Positions 44,210 through 48,332 of a DNA stretch of 64,000 nt are shown here, one piece after another; within the stretch, counting starts at the first letter, position 1, and each line of letters begins with the position of its first letter. The DNA lies in assembly GCA_049521795.1 (NCBI GenBank), contig JBEKOM010000003.1, positions 64,001-128,000 on the forward strand. The letters are read 5' to 3'. The notes below the pieces were generated by a model, which saw nothing but the letters and a program-made list of their open reading frames with translations, was not told where the DNA came from and ran no database searches. This DNA comes from Candidatus Bathyarchaeia archaeon. Lineage in GTDB: Archaea > Thermoproteota > Bathyarchaeia > Bathyarchaeales > Bathycorpusculaceae. A program made the translations under genes and the position numbers.

Positions 44210-44797
44210 ATGAACAGGACGATAATCGTTACTGGAATACCTGGAACTGGAAAGACCACGGTCTGCAGTTTCATCGAGAAGCTTGCAGAAAAAGCCGGCG
44301 TTGAAGTCAACGTGATAAACTATGGAACAGTCATGATGGAGATCCTTCATAAATCCGGGAGACCCATGGAAAGAGACGCGATGAGGAAGGACAGCGTAGA
44401 AACTCAACGCAAACTGCAGAGACAGGTCGCCGAGATAGTTGCTCAGAGAACAACGGCGTTCAAGGGCCTAACAGTCATCGACACGCACATGTCGATAAAG
44501 ACTCCTGAAGGATATTTTCCAGGTCTCTCGTGCAACAACCTGCCGCTGTTGAAGCCTGAAATGCTCGTGCTTGTTGAAGCCCAGCCAAGCGAAATATCTT
44601 CAAGAAGAATGAAGGACGCTGGCAGAAAAAGAGACACTTCCTTAGAGGATTCTGTTAAGGAAGAGCTCACTTTTTCACGGGCAATTGCTGGCGCGTGCGC
44701 CGTATTTATGAGTGCGCCTGTAAAAATAGTTGTAAACGCTGAGGGAAAACCTCAAGAAGCCGCGAAGGACATACTCAGGGCTATGGGAGTCGTGTAG
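44210..44797 (+). CDS. adkA: Archaeal adenylate kinase
   Basis: GIPGTGKTT, INYG, RDAMRK, IDTH, TPEGYFPGL. Confidence 0.94.
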   Translation: MNRTIIVTGIPGTGKTTVCSFIEKLAEKAGVEVNVINYGTVMMEILHKSGRPMERDAMRKDSVETQRKLQRQVAEIVAQRTTAFKGLTVIDTHMSIKTPEGYFPGLSCNNLPLLKPEMLVLVEAQPSEISSRRMKDAGRKRDTSLEDSVKEELTFSRAIAGACAVFMSAPVKIVVNAEGKPQEAAKDILRAMGVV

Positions 44798-44935
44798 ATG
44801 TGATGCAAGTGTTGTTGGCGGTACTTGTCCCGACATGTCTAAATATGACTAGAGGATACAGCATTACAAACGGAGCCTTTTCTGTCACGTCTTCCACATC
44901 AATAGGACAAATATGCAAAGTGGCGATATCATACT

Positions 44936-46072
44936 ATGCATGTTACTAAGGGAATGTCAGCTCTCCTAATAATCTCTGTTCTTGTCCTATCTTTATTTAT
45001 ATATTTTATTTCCATATCAAAAGTTGAAGCTGCTAGTGTCAACGAGGGAATATTACAAGACACAGCAGTAAACTATGGAAATCCAGCAACAAATTATGGA
45101 GATTCAGATCCATCAACTGGAGCTCTAGGGAACTTCACAATTACAGCCAATGGCACAGTATCTTTTTCTAGGCTTCTAATGGATCTAAACTTTTCTGGGA
45201 TAAGCCCATCATATACATTAAGTGATGTGACTTTGAACATGTATCTAGGTGCAGATAATCTAAGCACTTCTCCAGATTACTTTTACATAACTGCATATGA
45301 TTTACCATCTTCATTCAATGAAGGTACTGTTACATGGAATAGCATGCCTTCTTATAATACAAGTCTTTATTCAAACACGATCACAATTAATGATTCCACA
45401 TCTGGATGGCAGACCCTAAATATAACCAGTATGTGCTCAACCGTGTGGGCAGCAAATCCACAAATCACTGATATATACATAGTCTTAATTCCGCTTAACA
45501 GCAATGCTTCAGCTAGCTATATGGACAGTTTCTTGATTTATGGGCAAGACATTTCTAATTCATCACTAGCTCCATATGTTACTATAACATATAACATTCC
45601 GCCTATATTGAAGGAGATTCCTCAATCGACACTTTTCATACTCGGCTTAGCCTCATTGATATCGGTATTGACGACTTCTGTGAACCGTCTGCTTACAGAC
45701 CCCCAGAAGACAAAATCTGCACGAAAAGAGGTTACAGAATGGAACAAAGAACTGCGCCAGGCGCAACGCGACAAAGACAAAAAAACCGTCGAAAAACTGA
45801 TGAAAAAGCAACAGTACGTCATGTCGCTTCAAACTAAGATGATGTGGCAATCGATGAAAGTGTCACTGCTGTTTCTGGTTCCACTGCTCCTTATGTGGCA
45901 AGTTCTGGGTGGATTCTACAGCGGGCGAGCCGTAGCTTATCTTCCAGGAATCGGCGCTAATCTTCCATTACCGATTTTCAGCTATTCTCTCATCTGGTTT
46001 TATTTGCTTTGCTCACTCCTATTCGGTACAGCTTTTTCACACGTTTTTGGGTTGATTGAGGTGAGCGAGTAA
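44936..46072 (+). CDS. DUF106/EMC3/TMCO1 (Oxa1-superfamily) protein fused to an N-terminal signal peptide and DNRLRE-like extracellular domain
   Basis: C-terminal ~160 aa: TM, charged coiled coil, QTKMMWQSMK, two TMs ending WFYLLCS, at the canonical secY-adk-DUF106-L34e-cmk position. N-terminal part: DTAV...P.TNYG, R.L.., FNEGTVTWNSMP, GW..LNIT, P.VTITY. Confidence 0.8.
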   Translation: MHVTKGMSALLIISVLVLSLFIYFISISKVEAASVNEGILQDTAVNYGNPATNYGDSDPSTGALGNFTITANGTVSFSRLLMDLNFSGISPSYTLSDVTLNMYLGADNLSTSPDYFYITAYDLPSSFNEGTVTWNSMPSYNTSLYSNTITINDSTSGWQTLNITSMCSTVWAANPQITDIYIVLIPLNSNASASYMDSFLIYGQDISNSSLAPYVTITYNIPPILKEIPQSTLFILGLASLISVLTTSVNRLLTDPQKTKSARKEVTEWNKELRQAQRDKDKKTVEKLMKKQQYVMSLQTKMMWQSMKVSLLFLVPLLLMWQVLGGFYSGRAVAYLPGIGANLPLPIFSYSLIWFYLLCSLLFGTAFSHVFGLIEVSE

Positions 46073-46073
46073 C

Positions 46074-46340
46074 ATGCCGAGACCTGCTGAGCGCACGCGG
46101 AGCAGAAAACGCACGCCCAAACCCCTACCGGGCGGAAAGACTGGCACACAGTTCAGGTATGAGATGGCTGCTCGGCCAATCTGCAGCCGCTGTGGCCGGC
46201 AGTTAGCAGGCGTTTCAAACAGCTCTCCGAAAGTCAGGAAGCTCAACCGAAGCGCAAGGAGAGTTCAGCGTGTCCACGGAGGGCAGCTCTGCCACGACTG
46301 CATCAAGAATGCTTTGAGACAGGCTGCCAGGGCCCTCTAA
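46074..46340 (+). CDS. rpl34e: 50S ribosomal protein eL34
   Basis: MPRP..R, PGG, CSRCG, GGQLCHDC. Confidence 0.92.
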   Translation: MPRPAERTRSRKRTPKPLPGGKTGTQFRYEMAARPICSRCGRQLAGVSNSSPKVRKLNRSARRVQRVHGGQLCHDCIKNALRQAARAL

Positions 46341-47249: not shown

Positions 47250-48332
47250 TCAATGGGATGCAAGCGGCGGTTTCTTCAGAAAAAGTCTCGCGTTCCTCCA
47301 TTGTTCTTGCGCGATCTGAAGGTTAGCGAGAACGCTTCCGTGGAGAGAATAGAAAATGTAGCACATATACGTGCATTGGCTGCACTTGCTGTATTTCCTG
47401 CGCAGGGCCTTGAGTTGCGGAGTATTCCACACTCTGGGAAGATCGAATATCGTGGTTGTCGGTTCCTGCAAGTGACACCCAGCCACCCTGCCAACGTGGT
47501 CGATAATGAAGAAGTTCTGAAGTGCACGGCACTTCCATGGTCTTTCACCGGTCAAGTAGAGGTTCTTTACTGCCTTCAACAACTTTGAGGTCATAATGAT
47601 GTTGCTGTTTTTCTTCCTCATCGCTATCAACGAGTCACACGTTTTGACCATGGCGTTCCCGTCAACGATCGTGAACTCATCATTCTTCTTCCCTATTCCG
47701 AAAAGATGGCTCTGTTCGCCCGTTGAGTCGGGTGAGTCGGCTCTTTCGGGTGAGTCGTATGAGTAAATACTGTACCACACTGGAATGTCCCTACTCGTGA
47801 AGTATCTCGTGAGATCCAAGATTTCGTAGAGGTTGAACTGAGATATTGTCGGAGCCACACCGACTGAGATGCCGTTTTTGTGAAGTTCTTCAACAGCCTG
47901 CATCGCAGTGCTCCACGCGCCTTTAACACCCCTTATGTAGTCGTTCTTCTCAGGGTTCAAGCTGTCAATCGAGATTGCAACAAAGTCTGCGTGGCGCAGG
48001 GCTTCGATTTTCTCAACGGCCATACTGCCGTTGTCGTAGACCGTTGTTATGAAGGATTCCGAGGCGTGCCTTATGATTTCGCCTATGTCGTCTCTCAGAA
48101 GAGGGTTACCGCCGGAGAGCACAAGGTCTACTACGCCAAGTTCCCGAAGGATGTTCAAGCCTTTCTTCACTTGTTCTGTCGACAGCTCTCGGGGGTCTTG
48201 CTGCTGCCAGACTGAGCATCCTCTGCAACGGAAGTTACATTTTCTGGTGAGCATCCATTGAGCATGGCGCGGTCTGTTAGGCGTGAAGCTTCGAATTGCA
48301 ATGCTGCGAGCTTTCTTAAGAGACATGACCAA
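47250..48332 (-). CDS. Radical SAM protein with C-terminal SPASM/twitch-like domain
   Basis: CNFRCRGC, SGGNPLLR, ISIDS, C...G.V.GC...CSQCTYMC. Confidence 0.88.
   Translation of the reverse strand: MVMSLKKARSIAIRSFTPNRPRHAQWMLTRKCNFRCRGCSVWQQQDPRELSTEQVKKGLNILRELGVVDLVLSGGNPLLRDDIGEIIRHASESFITTVYDNGSMAVEKIEALRHADFVAISIDSLNPEKNDYIRGVKGAWSTAMQAVEELHKNGISVGVAPTISQFNLYEILDLTRYFTSRDIPVWYSIYSYDSPERADSPDSTGEQSHLFGIGKKNDEFTIVDGNAMVKTCDSLIAMRKKNSNIIMTSKLLKAVKNLYLTGERPWKCRALQNFFIIDHVGRVAGCHLQEPTTTIFDLPRVWNTPQLKALRRKYSKCSQCTYMCYIFYSLHGSVLANLQIAQEQWRNARLFLKKPPLASH

What the first reader, a model, noticed from the sequence alone, without database searches (positions are those of the whole stretch)
44936..46072. 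Archaeal Oxa1-superfamily insertase (DUF106/EMC3) fused to a secreted DNRLRE-like domain: a YidC-like architecture
Seen: at the conserved secY-adk-DUF106-rpl34e-cmk position the DUF106 protein is 378 aa. About 220 extra N-terminal residues are in frame with it. They comprise a signal-peptide-like helix (possible cleavage VEA/AS) and an S/T/N-rich domain with DNRLRE/disaggregatase-like motifs (P.TNYG, E..VTWN..P, P...ITY) and 9 N-x-S/T sequons. Established: archaeal DUF106 (Ylp1) proteins are small 3-TM Oxa1/EMC3/Get1 homologues with the N-terminus outside. Gram-negative YidC has a TM plus beta-sandwich P1 domain at the same topological place. Inference: the insertase has gained an extracellular glycosylated beta-sandwich domain. 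It could chaperone surface proteins, bind glycan, or anchor the insertase to the S-layer, converging on the YidC P1 layout.
Basis: partly seen in the sequence, partly recalled or inferred. Interest (0 to 1): 0.85.

Follow-up and report, generated by a model that had tools for sequence, protein, structure and literature searches.

The report
Archaeal insertase fused to secreted sugar-binding-type domain
A peat archaeon's only YidC-like membrane-protein insertase has recently picked up a signal peptide and a secreted beta-sandwich-type domain at its outward-facing end, and similar add-ons turn out to recur in related archaea, although what the extra domain does is still unknown.

Summary
ORF 44936-46072 (+, 378 aa) lies between adk and rpl34e. 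It reads signal peptide, CBM96/DNRLRE domain, then DUF106/Ylp1 core.

It is not a misassembly. Five sequence variants exist, one on a 2.35-Mb single-contig chromosome, and contigs from two other studies bridge both junctions.

It arose from a roughly 0.77-kb low-GC insertion into codon ~10 of the ancestral short gene. The old start survives as a 48-codon upstream ORF.

The N-domain is under purifying selection (dN/dS 0.24-0.37). The fusion is the only PF01956 match found in G000 and G001.

The allele is patchy among five close species, interleaved with short alleles.

Other Bathyarchaeia carry different N-terminal additions on DUF106: IPT-like, Ig-like and other domains, or a signal peptide plus S/T-rich linker.

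The YidC-P1 comparison holds for topology only. There is no P1 homology, and the founding CBM96's basic sugar groove cannot be conserved: the domain has 0 Lys and 1 Arg.

Function is unresolved. No RNA data exist.

I rate it a new variant of a known kind, of moderate interest.

The parts
44210..44797 (+). adk (archaeal-type adenylate kinase), the upstream neighbour. In short-form relatives the DUF106 start lies within 5 nt of its stop.
   Evidence: Pfam AAA_17, E 6e-28. The start codon lies 2-5 nt after, or overlaps, the adk stop in G002, G010, G003, G036 and G025.
44803..44949 (+). Relic upstream ORF of 48 codons plus stop. Its first ~8 codons (44803-44826, MQVLLAVL) are the stranded ancestral DUF106 start. 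Its TAA stop overlaps the new ATG by 14 nt.
   Evidence: The DNA aligns to the G002 start region. The frame is open in all 3 DNAs (48, 67 and 66 codons), while the other two frames hold 1-4 stops. The indels between them are 60 nt and 3 nt, both multiples of three. No Pfam hit.
44827..45595 (+). Inserted low-GC segment, about 0.77 kb here and about 0.83 kb in G001 and the metagenome variant. It holds a spacer, an SD-like motif, the new start, the signal peptide and the CBM96 domain. Boundaries are good to a few nt.
   Evidence: Homology to the short allele of G002 stops after ...TACTT and resumes at CCGCCTATA. GC3 is 0.273 against 0.559 +/- 0.048 for 41 ORFs of >= 200 aa in the window. This is the lowest-GC 660-nt stretch of the window.
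44920..44927 (+). Shine-Dalgarno-like GTGGCGAT, 8 nt before the ATG.
   Evidence: The block GTGGCGATATCATAC is identical in all 3 DNAs. rpl34e has GAGGTGA at a similar distance. The anti-SD consensus is recalled from memory and was not checked in this genome.
44936..46072 (+). Fusion CDS, 378 aa plus stop.
   Evidence: The frame is kept in 5 variants, and the indels between them are in frame.
44936..45031 (+). Signal peptide or signal anchor, residues 1-32: n-region MHVTKG, a ~22-residue hydrophobic core, then V-E-A before AS.
   Evidence: Strongest hydropathy peak, with window centres at residues 10-26. Small residues at -3 and -1 are kept in the 4 full-length proteins (VEA, VKA, VKA, AKA), and L028 also reads VKA. 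dN/dS is about 1.1 over residues 1-33, as is usual for signal peptides. An archaeal signal peptidase I gene is present in G000 (TIGR02228, 64 bits). Cleavage itself was not tested.
45056..45589 (+). CBM96/DNRLRE-type domain, residues 41-218. It is acidic (pI 4.05), has 0 Lys and 1 Arg, and carries 9 N-glycosylation sequons.
   Evidence: A profile of this domain plus its relatives hits the solved structures 8wab_A (E 9.5e-18) and 7vbo_A (E 2.1e-13).
45596..46069 (+). DUF106/Ylp1 (Oxa1-superfamily) core, residues 221-378.
   Evidence: Pfam EMC3_TMCO1. MJ0480 (PDB 5c8j), E 4.2e-8, aligning query 214-352 to chain residues 10-148. It is 83% identical to the short G002 protein.
45620..45682 (+). TM1 of the core, about residues 229-249. 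It would act as stop-transfer and anchor for the ectodomain. Only about 10 residues separate it from the last beta-strand-like stretch, YVTITY.
   Evidence: Hydropathy peak at 237-241. N250 and R251 are invariant in alignment A1.
45683..45835 (+). Cytoplasmic basic coiled-coil region, residues 250-300, with 14 K/R against 7 D/E.
   Evidence: It aligns to the same region of MJ0480.
45848..46045 (+). TM2 and TM3 region, about residues 305-370.
   Evidence: Hydropathy peaks with window centres at 315-320 and 352-367.
46074..46340 (+). rpl34e, the downstream neighbour, starting 1 nt after the fusion's stop.
   Evidence: Pfam Ribosomal_L34e, E 6.7e-15.

Best explanation
SHOWN
- This is a real chimeric gene.
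- A foreign-looking low-GC segment of about 0.77 kb was inserted at about codon 10 of the ancestral short DUF106/Ylp1 gene. The segment carries its own start codon, a Sec-type signal peptide and a CBM96/DNRLRE domain without a stop codon.
- The result is one 378-aa reading frame. It is the only Oxa1-family (PF01956) gene detected in this genome and in the closed genome G001.

INFERRED MECHANISM
- The signal peptide sends the nascent chain to SecYEG.
- The acidic, Lys-free domain of about 190 residues is exported and probably N-glycosylated.
- TM1 of the insertase core stops transfer and tethers the domain about 10 residues above the membrane.
- The cytoplasmic coiled coil and TM2-TM3 then form the usual insertase core, which keeps working.
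- The insertase's own biogenesis therefore changes from a short, Sec-independent N-tail to Sec-dependent export. The same holds for E. coli YidC with its TM1 and P1 domain.

MOST LIKELY ROLE OF THE ECTODOMAIN (about 45%)
- It is an autonomous cell-surface module, probably binding envelope or environmental glycan.
- It has swapped the C-terminal transmembrane anchor that such modules normally have in these archaea for TM1 of Ylp1.
- It is tolerated and kept by selection, but is not part of the insertion mechanism.
- The allele is young and moves or is lost by recombination among close species.

The confidence given (0.5) is for the whole statement. The shown part alone I would put above 0.9.
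For: REAL AND IN FRAME
- The 5.8-billion-protein search lists four fusion proteins, one of which is this window's own. A fifth variant was read from two metagenome contigs.
- One variant lies on a single-contig 2,346,764-bp chromosome.
- Contigs of runs from other studies match with 0 differences across both junctions: X2 covers 44600-45114 and 45147-45701, X4 covers 45517-46041, and X3 covers 44774-45181.

INSERTION
- The ancestral start and about 8 codons remain directly after the adk stop, and homology to the short allele resumes at residue ~222.
- GC3 of the N part is 0.273, against 0.503 for the core and 0.559 +/- 0.048 for 41 ORFs in the window.

SELECTION
- dN/dS of the N-domain is 0.37, 0.24 and 0.29 in three pairs. 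The core gives 0.33, 0.23 and 0.19.

SOLE COPY
- There is one PF01956 match each in G000, G001 and G002.

TOPOLOGY
- Published topology is N-out/C-in (PMC5868721).
- The exported part has 0 Lys and 1 Arg, whereas the TM1-TM2 loop has 14 K/R.
- Genes for signal peptidase I and an STT3/AglB homologue are present in G000.

ANCHOR SWAP
- All 3 stand-alone CBM96 proteins I read in this class are signal peptide + CBM96 (+ Ig) + C-terminal TM anchor: the G000 paralogue, G009 and G038.
- The Ig-like domain of the independent fusion P0068 sits just before a C-terminal anchor in larger surface proteins.
- The same Ig-like domain is fused in the same way to BacA/UppP (Pfam BacA E 7e-67 in G384). Three more frames, in G392, G377 and G366, look the same.

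PATCHINESS
- The flank tree interleaves fusion and short alleles, with G001_fus + G010_short at 100% support and G000_fus + G002_short at 74%.
Against: - No RNA or protein evidence exists. No RNA run holds the stretch.
- Cleavage, glycosylation and export are inferred, not shown.
- No 3D model could be made, so the geometry of the domain relative to the groove is unknown.
- Recurrence may point to an advantage of having something on the outer end of the insertase itself, which favours the rival reading. DUF106 in Bathyarchaeia carries at least four different folded N-terminal domains plus a linker-only form. An earlier scan note describes a loop insertion in DPANN.
- The linker to TM1 is very short, and the fusion replaces the start of the N-terminal peripheral helix H0 described in PMC8675477. 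A pure passenger would not need that.
- Low GC3 also marks the other CBM96 gene (0.324) and three of four other ectodomain fusions. It may partly be a property of surface-protein genes rather than proof of foreign origin.
- The flank tree rests on 2166 columns, and two of its nodes have support of 58-74%.
Confidence: 0.5

Rival explanations
1. P1-like coupling. The ectodomain works in cis with the insertase. It would sit over the outer end of the hydrophilic groove. There it could hold or fold translocated tails of substrates, dock the insertase to SecYEG or SecDF-like partners, or tie it to the S-layer or glycan layer. This would be a functional convergence on Gram-negative YidC.
For: - The layout matches that of E. 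coli YidC.
- There are about 10 residues between the domain and TM1, and the start of helix H0 is replaced.
- It is the sole insertase copy, so any interference would be costly.
- The domain is under purifying selection.
- N-terminal additions to DUF106 arose repeatedly and independently. In family f1, 5 of 134 genomes with a match carry one, in 5 genera and with at least 3 domain types. P0068 is a further case. In genus g113, 7 of 9 genomes read have a signal peptide plus S/T-rich linker. An unchecked earlier scan note reports a DPANN-wide Ig-like insertion in the outer loop.
Against: - There is no sequence relation to P1.
- The add-ons are of unrelated folds, and one is only a linker. No specific binding function is shared.
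- The alleles are sporadic among congeners instead of fixed.
- The same kind of module is also fused to BacA, so the habit is not specific to the insertase.
- Per the review passages read, a large deletion in E. coli P1 still leaves YidC able to insert Sec-dependent substrates.
Confidence: 0.3
2. Biogenesis or expression device. What is selected is the signal peptide plus a glycosylated spacer, which makes insertion of the cell's only Oxa1-type insertase depend on SecYEG rather than on pre-existing Ylp1. The particular fold attached is incidental.
For: - The common denominator of all the variants I read is a signal peptide followed by a sequon-rich or S/T-rich exported stretch placed directly before TM1.
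- In genus g113 the addition is only that, a signal peptide plus 40-60 S/T/N-rich residues.
Against: - A signal peptide alone would be enough for this purpose.
- Yet 185 residues of folded domain are kept under purifying selection (dN/dS 0.24-0.37).
- Most relatives manage without any addition: 37 of the 40 other genomes searched match the DUF106 part only, and 129 of 134 do in family f1.
Confidence: 0.1
3. Two products, or only the short one. Translation or transcription restarts near the junction, for example at the in-frame TTG of Leu225. The cell would then make a normal short Ylp1, and the long form would be minor or absent.
For: - The codon for Leu225 is TTG in all 3 fusion DNAs but CTG in the short allele of G002.
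- No expression data exist to exclude this.
Against: - There is no SD-like motif before that TTG, whereas the ATG at 44936 has a conserved one.
- A start at Leu225 would leave only ~4 residues before TM1.
- The N-domain frame is kept, with in-frame indels and dN/dS well below 1, in five variants. That is not expected for an untranslated leader.
- The ancestral start has been cut off from the core.
Confidence: 0.07
4. Assembly or binning artefact that joined a surface-protein fragment to DUF106.
For: - There is a sharp GC step at both borders.
- G000 is a 69-contig assembly with 4.37% estimated contamination.
Against: - The same junctions are found in a single-contig chromosome, in a further metagenome and in contigs of two other studies, with 0 differences.
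- The variants differ by 14-25% in protein sequence but share the junction.
Confidence: 0.01

Closest known systems
Archaeal Ylp1 / MJ0480 (DUF106, Pfam PF01956; PDB 5c8j), the YidC-like insertase of Methanocaldococcus jannaschii
   Same: - The C-terminal 158 residues are a clear homologue (E 4.2e-8 to 5c8j; Pfam above cut-off).
- It has the same three hydrophobic segments and basic TM1-TM2 region.
- It sits at the same locus next to secY and adk as the short forms of relatives.
   Different: - About 220 extra residues (signal peptide plus CBM96-type domain) precede TM1.
- The first ~9 residues of the ancestral N-terminus are replaced.
- The usual forms are 150-196 aa open frames: 130 of the 136 matches in family f1 are <= 211 aa.
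Gram-negative YidC (E. coli: TM1 signal anchor + large periplasmic P1 domain + conserved core)
   Same: - Same order of parts and same sidedness: hydrophobic N-terminal export signal, a large exported non-catalytic domain, then the groove-forming core (PMC7618853 passages).
- In both, the added domain makes the insertase's own N-terminal export a Sec-type task. This point is inferred.
   Different: - The core is the 3-TM archaeal/eukaryotic type (PF01956), not the 5-TM bacterial 60KD_IMP.
- The ectodomain is CBM96/DNRLRE, with no match to YidC_periplas.
- It is probably cleaved rather than doubly anchored.
- It is sporadic and recent, not a phylum-wide feature.
- That P1 has a beta-supersandwich fold is recalled from memory, not taken from a call.
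CBM96 / DNRLRE domain (founding member TM6-N4 of alginate lyase Dp0100, PDB 7vbo; DNRLRE protein 8wab)
   Same: - HMM matches above the curated cut-offs over the whole domain.
- A profile including this domain finds both solved structures.
- The family fold is a Ca-binding beta-sandwich (PMC9971899).
   Different: - It is only 24-37% identical to any of 62 representatives among 1.84 billion.
- The Lys/Arg-lined groove that binds alginate in the founding member cannot be conserved, because this domain has 0 Lys and 1 Arg with pI 4.05.
- It is fused to a polytopic membrane protein rather than to an enzyme or an S-layer protein.
Stand-alone CBM96 surface proteins of the same genus (G000:C3:60044-60529, 277 aa; G009 orthologue, 249 aa)
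   Same: They share the signal peptide, the DNRLRE domain (75.2 bits), placement directly before an N-out/C-in transmembrane helix, and low GC3 (0.324).
   Different: - Their helix is a terminal anchor (VPEF + TM + basic tail), not TM1 of an insertase.
- Only a 38-residue stretch is 39% identical to the fusion's domain, so they are not the donor.
Other ectodomain-bearing DUF106 forms: IPT-like (G358, G413, G248), another domain (G160), Ig-like (P0068), signal peptide + S/T linker (genus g113), and a DPANN loop insertion from an earlier scan note
   Same: - Same principle: an exported addition on the outer side of the sole Ylp1, joined about 10 residues before TM1.
- Two of them sit at the canonical locus. 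G248 lies after secY and G358 lies before cmk.
   Different: - The domain families are unrelated to CBM96. N-parts are 22-32% identical over short stretches, at chance level.
- The DPANN case is an insertion between TM2 and TM3 and was not checked here.

Membership tests
Oxa1 superfamily, archaeal Ylp1/DUF106 (PF01956) | Significant match to the family HMM above the curated cut-off | tested here: met
   EMC3_TMCO1, 45.8 bits against 27.1, residues 233-372.
Oxa1 superfamily, archaeal Ylp1/DUF106 (PF01956) | Homology to the structurally solved archaeal member MJ0480 | tested here: met
   phmmer against PDB chain 5c8j_I, E 4.2e-8, query 214-352 aligned to chain residues 10-148.
Oxa1 superfamily, archaeal Ylp1/DUF106 (PF01956) | [quoted passage not shown] | tested here: met
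   Hydropathy peaks near residues 237-241, 315-320 and 352-367, and 14 K/R in residues 250-300. This was done by hydropathy only. No topology predictor or structure model was available.
Oxa1 superfamily, archaeal Ylp1/DUF106 (PF01956) | Conserved position in the secY-adk-...-rpl34e-cmk cluster, as the orthologue of relatives' short gene | tested here: met
   The core is 83% identical to the short G002 gene at the same place.
Oxa1 superfamily, archaeal Ylp1/DUF106 (PF01956) | Ribosome binding and insertase activity | not testable with these tools
   Needs biochemistry. [quoted passage not shown]
CBM96 / DNRLRE domain | Match to the family HMMs above the curated cut-offs | tested here: met
   Pfam CBM96, 37.7 bits against 26. 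NCBIfam NF033679, 46.8 bits against 34, covering profile positions 1-164 of 164.
CBM96 / DNRLRE domain | Beta-sandwich fold like 7vbo and 8wab | tested here: inconclusive
   Supported only through sequence-profile homology: 8wab_A E 9.5e-18 and 7vbo_A E 2.1e-13, using a profile dominated by other CBM96 members.
CBM96 / DNRLRE domain | Basic ligand groove of the founding alginate-binding member (Lys10, 22, 25, 27, 31, Arg36, Tyr159) | tested here: not met
   Residues 34-218 contain 0 Lys and 1 Arg, with pI 4.05. The residue list is from PMC9971899. The single Arg lies in the FSRLLMDL motif.
CBM96 / DNRLRE domain | Carbohydrate binding | not testable with these tools
   Needs recombinant protein and glycan arrays or ITC.
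Bacterial YidC with P1 domain (PF14849 YidC_periplas + PF02096 60KD_IMP) | Homology of the ectodomain to P1 and of the core to the 5-TM bacterial family | tested here: not met
   Neither family is among the 8 Pfam families listed at E <= 1.
Bacterial YidC with P1 domain (PF14849 YidC_periplas + PF02096 60KD_IMP) | Order of parts: N-terminal export signal or anchor, large exported domain, groove-forming core | tested here: met
   Seen directly in the sequence and hydropathy profile. Sidedness is inferred from the published Ylp1 topology.
Sec-type signal peptide | n-, h- and c-regions with small residues at -3 and -1, and a signal peptidase I in the genome | tested here: inconclusive
   The pattern MHVTKG / 22 hydrophobic residues / V-E-A|A is present. 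Small -3/-1 residues are kept in the 4 full-length proteins and in L028. TIGR02228 is found in G000 at 64 bits, whereas PF10502 found nothing. The long h-region would also fit an uncleaved signal anchor. No SignalP-type tool was available.

The most novel reading that the evidence does not exclude
Archaeal YidC-like insertases repeatedly and independently capture secreted, glycosylated beta-sandwich modules on their outer face. In Bathyarchaeia these are CBM96, IPT-like, Ig-like and other domains, and possibly an Ig-like loop insertion in DPANN. The reading is that an outer 'cap' next to the groove exit gives a selectable benefit to membrane-protein or surface-glycoprotein biogenesis. That would be a true functional convergence with the P1 domain of Gram-negative YidC. 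It would also make the cell's only insertase dependent on SecYEG for its own assembly.
Probability: 0.28. Interest if true: 0.8.

Novelty: new variant of a known kind. Interest (0 to 1): 0.6.

Why it matters
Archaeal Ylp1 is the least studied branch of the Oxa1 superfamily. A passage of PMC8675477 states that no biochemistry in archaeal cells has been published.

Natural variants with an exported domain welded about 10 residues from TM1 have three uses:
- They show that the outer N-terminus tolerates large, Sec-exported cargo.
- They give natural 'tags' for topology and interaction studies.
- They pose a testable question: does an outer domain modulate insertion, as proposed for YidC P1?

The case is also a clean, datable example of gene birth by insertion. 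The old start codon is left behind as an upstream ORF, and the new allele spreads or is lost among sister species.

If the domain is only a passenger, the finding is a modest curiosity about how surface modules find membrane anchors.

Tried and rejected
NOT OBTAINED
There is therefore no model and no Foldseek or VIA search.
- Expression: no RNA holder was listed for 44600-46100.
- PMC4558205 (Borowska 2015, the MJ0480 structure paper) is not held. Statements about it come from passages in papers that cite it.
- Supplementary files of papers were not consulted.

DONOR SEARCH FOR THE N-DOMAIN
- The word-index search found only the fusions.
- The exhaustive representative search gave 62 hits at 24-37% identity and none at E <= 1e-30.
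- The viral contig scan found no relative.
- The genome scan found only G001.
- The paralogue in the same genome is not the donor.
- The closest relatives are tandem CBM96 proteins with T9SS tails, one of them named as Bacteroidia. That says little.

MOBILE-ELEMENT SIGNS AT THE BORDERS
- Repeats are only 9-20 nt and of chance quality.
- There is no tRNA gene and no Rfam match.
- A possible duplication of ...CTT CCG... at both ends is too short to call.

OTHER NEGATIVE OR UNINFORMATIVE RESULTS
- ESM Atlas scores were 0.79-0.86, which count as leads only.
- PF10502 for signal peptidase found nothing in G000. The archaeal model TIGR02228 did.
- Several long open frames turned out not to be extensions: G164, G108, G119 and G090. 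G363 is a frame joined to a bacterial DnaE-like frame, probably chimeric.
- The internal start at Leu225 is judged unlikely, but it cannot be excluded without RNA or protein data.
- Literature: searches for DUF106 (40 papers, 25 listed), for DUF106 + archaea + Oxa1 + YidC and for 'archaeal YidC'/EMC3/Get1, plus the passages read, showed no description of N-terminal ectodomain forms of archaeal DUF106. I read passages, not whole texts.
Full report
WHAT IS THERE

The window holds one ATG-started ORF at 44936-46072 (+) of 378 aa. It lies in the conserved cluster L15, SecY, adk, X, L34e, cmk (Pfam). Three domain matches define it:
- Pfam EMC3_TMCO1 (DUF106) at residues 233-372, 45.8 bits against a cut-off of 27.1.
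- Pfam CBM96 at residues 41-177, 37.7 bits against 26.
- NCBIfam DNRLRE at residues 41-218, the whole 164-position profile, 46.8 bits against 34.

The core is a homologue of the solved archaeal YidC-like protein MJ0480 (5c8j, E 4.2e-8). A profile of the N-domain with its relatives finds the two solved CBM96/DNRLRE structures, 8wab (E 9.5e-18) and 7vbo (E 2.1e-13). The founding CBM96 is a Ca-binding beta-sandwich (PMC9971899, passages).

Residues 1-32 form an n/h/c pattern ending V-E-A before A-S. There are nine N-x-S/T sequons, all between residues 66 and 208, against 4.8 +/- 1.8 in shuffles.

IS IT REAL?

Among 41 genomes of the same order (G000 included), 40 gave a match and G004 gave none.
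- Only G000 and G001 match over residues 1-378.
- 37 match the DUF106 part alone, in open frames of at most about 195 aa.
- G017 matched only a CBM96-like stretch elsewhere in its genome.

G001 is a single-contig chromosome of 2,346,764 bp. The 5.8-billion-protein search lists four fusion proteins: the window's own, plus three at 82%, 78% and 75% identity. A metagenome scan added a fifth variant at 86% identity on two contigs, L028 and L029, that meet inside the N-domain. It has the same neighbours.

Contigs assembled from other runs in other studies match with no differences across both borders. X2 covers 44600-45114 and 45147-45701. X4 covers 45517-46041. X3 covers 44774-45181. An assembly artefact is excluded for practical purposes.

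HOW IT AROSE

In the short-form congener G002, the DUF106 start (TTG ATG CAA GTG TTG...) follows the adk stop by 2 nt. In G000, G001 and the metagenome variant the same start and about eight codons are still there, directly after adk. Homology then breaks off and resumes about 770-830 nt later at CCG CCT ATA, residue 222.

The piece in between is the lowest-GC stretch of the 64-kb window. Its GC3 is 0.273. The core has 0.503, and 41 ORFs of >= 200 aa in the window have 0.559 +/- 0.048. I found no convincing terminal repeats, tRNA or RNA family at the borders and no close donor anywhere.

The stranded start now opens an upstream ORF of 48, 67 and 66 codons in the three DNAs.
- It is open in all three, while the other frames carry 1-4 stops.
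- The length differences between the three are 60 nt and 3 nt, both multiples of three.
- Its stop overlaps the new ATG by 11-14 nt.
- Shuffles leave it open in 10%, 2% and 3% of trials, but the three sequences are related. I treat translational coupling from adk as a possibility, not a finding.

A conserved SD-like GTGGCGAT sits 8 nt before the new ATG.

IS THE ADDED PART USED?

In three pairwise comparisons the N-domain has dN/dS of 0.37, 0.24 and 0.29. The core has 0.33, 0.23 and 0.19. adk and cmk have 0.08-0.18 for the same genome pairs. All indels among the variants are in frame. The signal-peptide stretch evolves at dN/dS of about 1.1 but keeps small residues at -3 and -1.

The fusion is the only PF01956 match found in G000 and in the closed genome G001. 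The core must therefore still supply whatever Ylp1 does. N250 and R251 in TM1 and 100 other core positions are invariant between the fused and short forms.

G000 also encodes an STT3/AglB homologue and an archaeal signal peptidase I.

TOPOLOGY AND MECHANISM (INFERRED)

[quoted passage not shown] 2 legend and text passages). The charge pattern fits this. The N-domain has 0 Lys, 1 Arg and pI 4.05, whereas the TM1-TM2 segment has 14 K/R.

A folded domain of about 190 residues cannot follow the short-tail route, so the signal peptide is the necessary companion of the domain. I infer the following sequence:
1. Sec-dependent export of the domain.
2. Probable cleavage after VEA, and N-glycosylation.
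3. Stop-transfer at TM1.
4. Normal formation of the core.

Only about 10 residues (NIPPILKEIPQS) separate the last beta-strand-like stretch YVTITY from TM1. The fusion replaces the beginning of the N-terminal peripheral helix H0 described for the SecY/Oxa1 fold (PMC8675477, passage).

DISTRIBUTION

A maximum-likelihood tree of the flanking genes (secY 3' end, adk, L34e and cmk; 2166 columns) gives ((((G000_fus,G002_short)74,(G001_fus,G010_short)100)58,meta5_fus)100,outgroups). Long and short alleles are therefore interleaved among five close species.

All fusion alleles share LKEIP at the junction, where short alleles read LQTIP or LQNIP. Synonymous divergence of the N-domain is about half that of its neighbours in the three fusion-fusion pairs. 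Together these observations suggest that one fusion allele spread, or was replaced, by recombination after the species split. Repeated precise loss is not excluded, and two nodes of the tree are weakly supported.

A WIDER PATTERN

A search restricted to long relatives of the core found P0068 (320 aa, 58% identical core). It reads signal peptide + an Ig-like domain of about 100 residues + DUF106, joined at the same place. It is seen in two records.

I then searched 141 genomes of the same family with the core. 134 have a match, 136 matches were listed, and nearly all open frames are 150-196 aa. Six frames are >= 280 aa. On inspection:
- G358, G413 and G248 are signal peptide + IPT/TIG-like domain + DUF106.
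- G160 carries a different domain.
- G363 is an artefactual frame.
- The sixth is G000 itself.

That makes 5 of 134 genomes, in five genera, whose sampled congeners mostly have short frames.

In another family, 7 of 9 genomes read in genus g113 have a signal peptide plus a 40-60-residue S/T/N-rich linker before an intact N-terminal helix.

The habit is not limited to the insertase, however. The same Ig-like domain with a signal peptide is fused to BacA/UppP in G384 (Pfam BacA E 7e-67). Frames in G392, G377 and G366 look the same.

In ordinary surface proteins of these archaea, both that Ig-like domain and CBM96 sit directly before a C-terminal transmembrane anchor.

WHAT IT MOST LIKELY DOES

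Two readings remain.

(a) Anchor swap. A surface module that normally ends in an N-out/C-in anchor has taken TM1 of Ylp1 as its anchor and works on its own. The evidence for this is the architecture of stand-alone relatives, the BacA fusions, the sporadic distribution and the foreign composition.

(b) P1-like coupling. The evidence is the number of independent captures on this one protein, the very short linker and the fact that it is the sole insertase copy.

I put (a) at about 45% and (b) at about 30%. A signal-peptide or biogenesis explanation gets about 10%. A restart near the junction that makes mainly the short protein gets about 7%.

The domain is unlikely to bind polyanionic sugars in the way the founding CBM96 does, because the basic groove is absent.

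COMPARISON AND NOVELTY

The core is a member of the Ylp1/DUF106 family, and the N-domain is a divergent CBM96/DNRLRE member. The protein is not a member of the bacterial YidC/P1 families, although it is laid out like them.

NCBI already names the G001 protein 'EMC3/TMCO1 family protein' and JGI names two others 'DUF106 family', so the sequences are public. In my literature searches and the passages I read, I found no description of N-terminal ectodomain forms of archaeal DUF106.

I class it as a new variant of a known kind. Interest is moderate (0.6). The fusion is real, datable and part of a recurrent pattern, but its function is open. No structure model (tool unavailable) and no expression data could be obtained.

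Noticed in passing
window 44803-44949 (+); L002 1308-1511; L029 2724-2924: The stranded ancestral DUF106 start opens an upstream ORF of 48, 67 and 66 codons. The frame is open in all three fusion DNAs. It differs between them only by in-frame indels and ends 11-14 nt inside the new gene. Translational coupling from adk is possible. It has no Pfam match.
   Followed up: partly
G000:C3:60044-60529 (-), = L021 1345-2178 (-), about 4 kb before the window start: This is the second CBM96/DNRLRE gene of the genome (277 aa). It reads signal peptide + domain + 'VPEF' + TM helix + basic tail, which from memory resembles a PEF-CTERM-type sorting signal. NCBIfam reported no such model at E <= 1. It also has low GC3 (0.324). 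An orthologue is present in G009 (L045 438-1187).
   Followed up: partly
P0068 / P0069 (320 aa, metagenome proteins): An independent fusion of signal peptide + Ig-like domain of about 100 residues + DUF106, with the junction at the same place (...LQETPFSTLF...). The domain has no Pfam match. No DNA context could be fetched.
   Followed up: partly
L048 98-916 (-) G358; L050 46-876 (-) G413; L051 258-1073 (+) G248; L049 148-1065 (+) G160: Four more DUF106 genes carry a signal peptide and an N-terminal ectodomain. Three are IPT/TIG-like and homologous to each other (39-59% identity), and one is different. G248 lies after secY and G358 lies before cmk. Congeners mostly have short forms.
   Followed up: partly
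L025 263-967 (-) G255; also L037-L042 (G272, G316, G322, G266, G213, G183): In genus g113 of another Bathyarchaeia family, DUF106 is 225-242 aa. It has a signal peptide and a 40-60-residue S/T/N-rich linker before the usual N-terminal helix. This holds for 7 of the 9 genomes read; G304 and G290 lack it.
   Followed up: partly
L031 700-1977 (-) G384; similar frames in L032, L033, L034: Signal peptide + the same Ig-like domain fused to the N-terminus of BacA/UppP, the undecaprenyl-diphosphatase family (Pfam BacA E 7e-67 in G384). N-terminal ectodomain capture by polytopic membrane proteins is therefore not limited to the insertase.
   Followed up: partly
L011 (G009:C13:140242-140746): The DUF106 gene of congener G009 matches in two different frames of 69 and 127 aa. 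It may be a frameshift or a sequencing error.
   Followed up: no
L047 (G363:C9:900-2400): A 315-aa frame joins a bacterial DnaE-like reading frame to the last ~107 residues of DUF106. It is probably a chimeric contig in that MAG.
   Followed up: no
window 47250-48332 (-): A 360-aa ORF downstream of cmk carries a CNFRCRGC motif near its N-terminus. From memory this looks like a radical-SAM-type cluster motif. It is conserved next to the cluster in G001, G002 and the metagenome contig.
   Followed up: no
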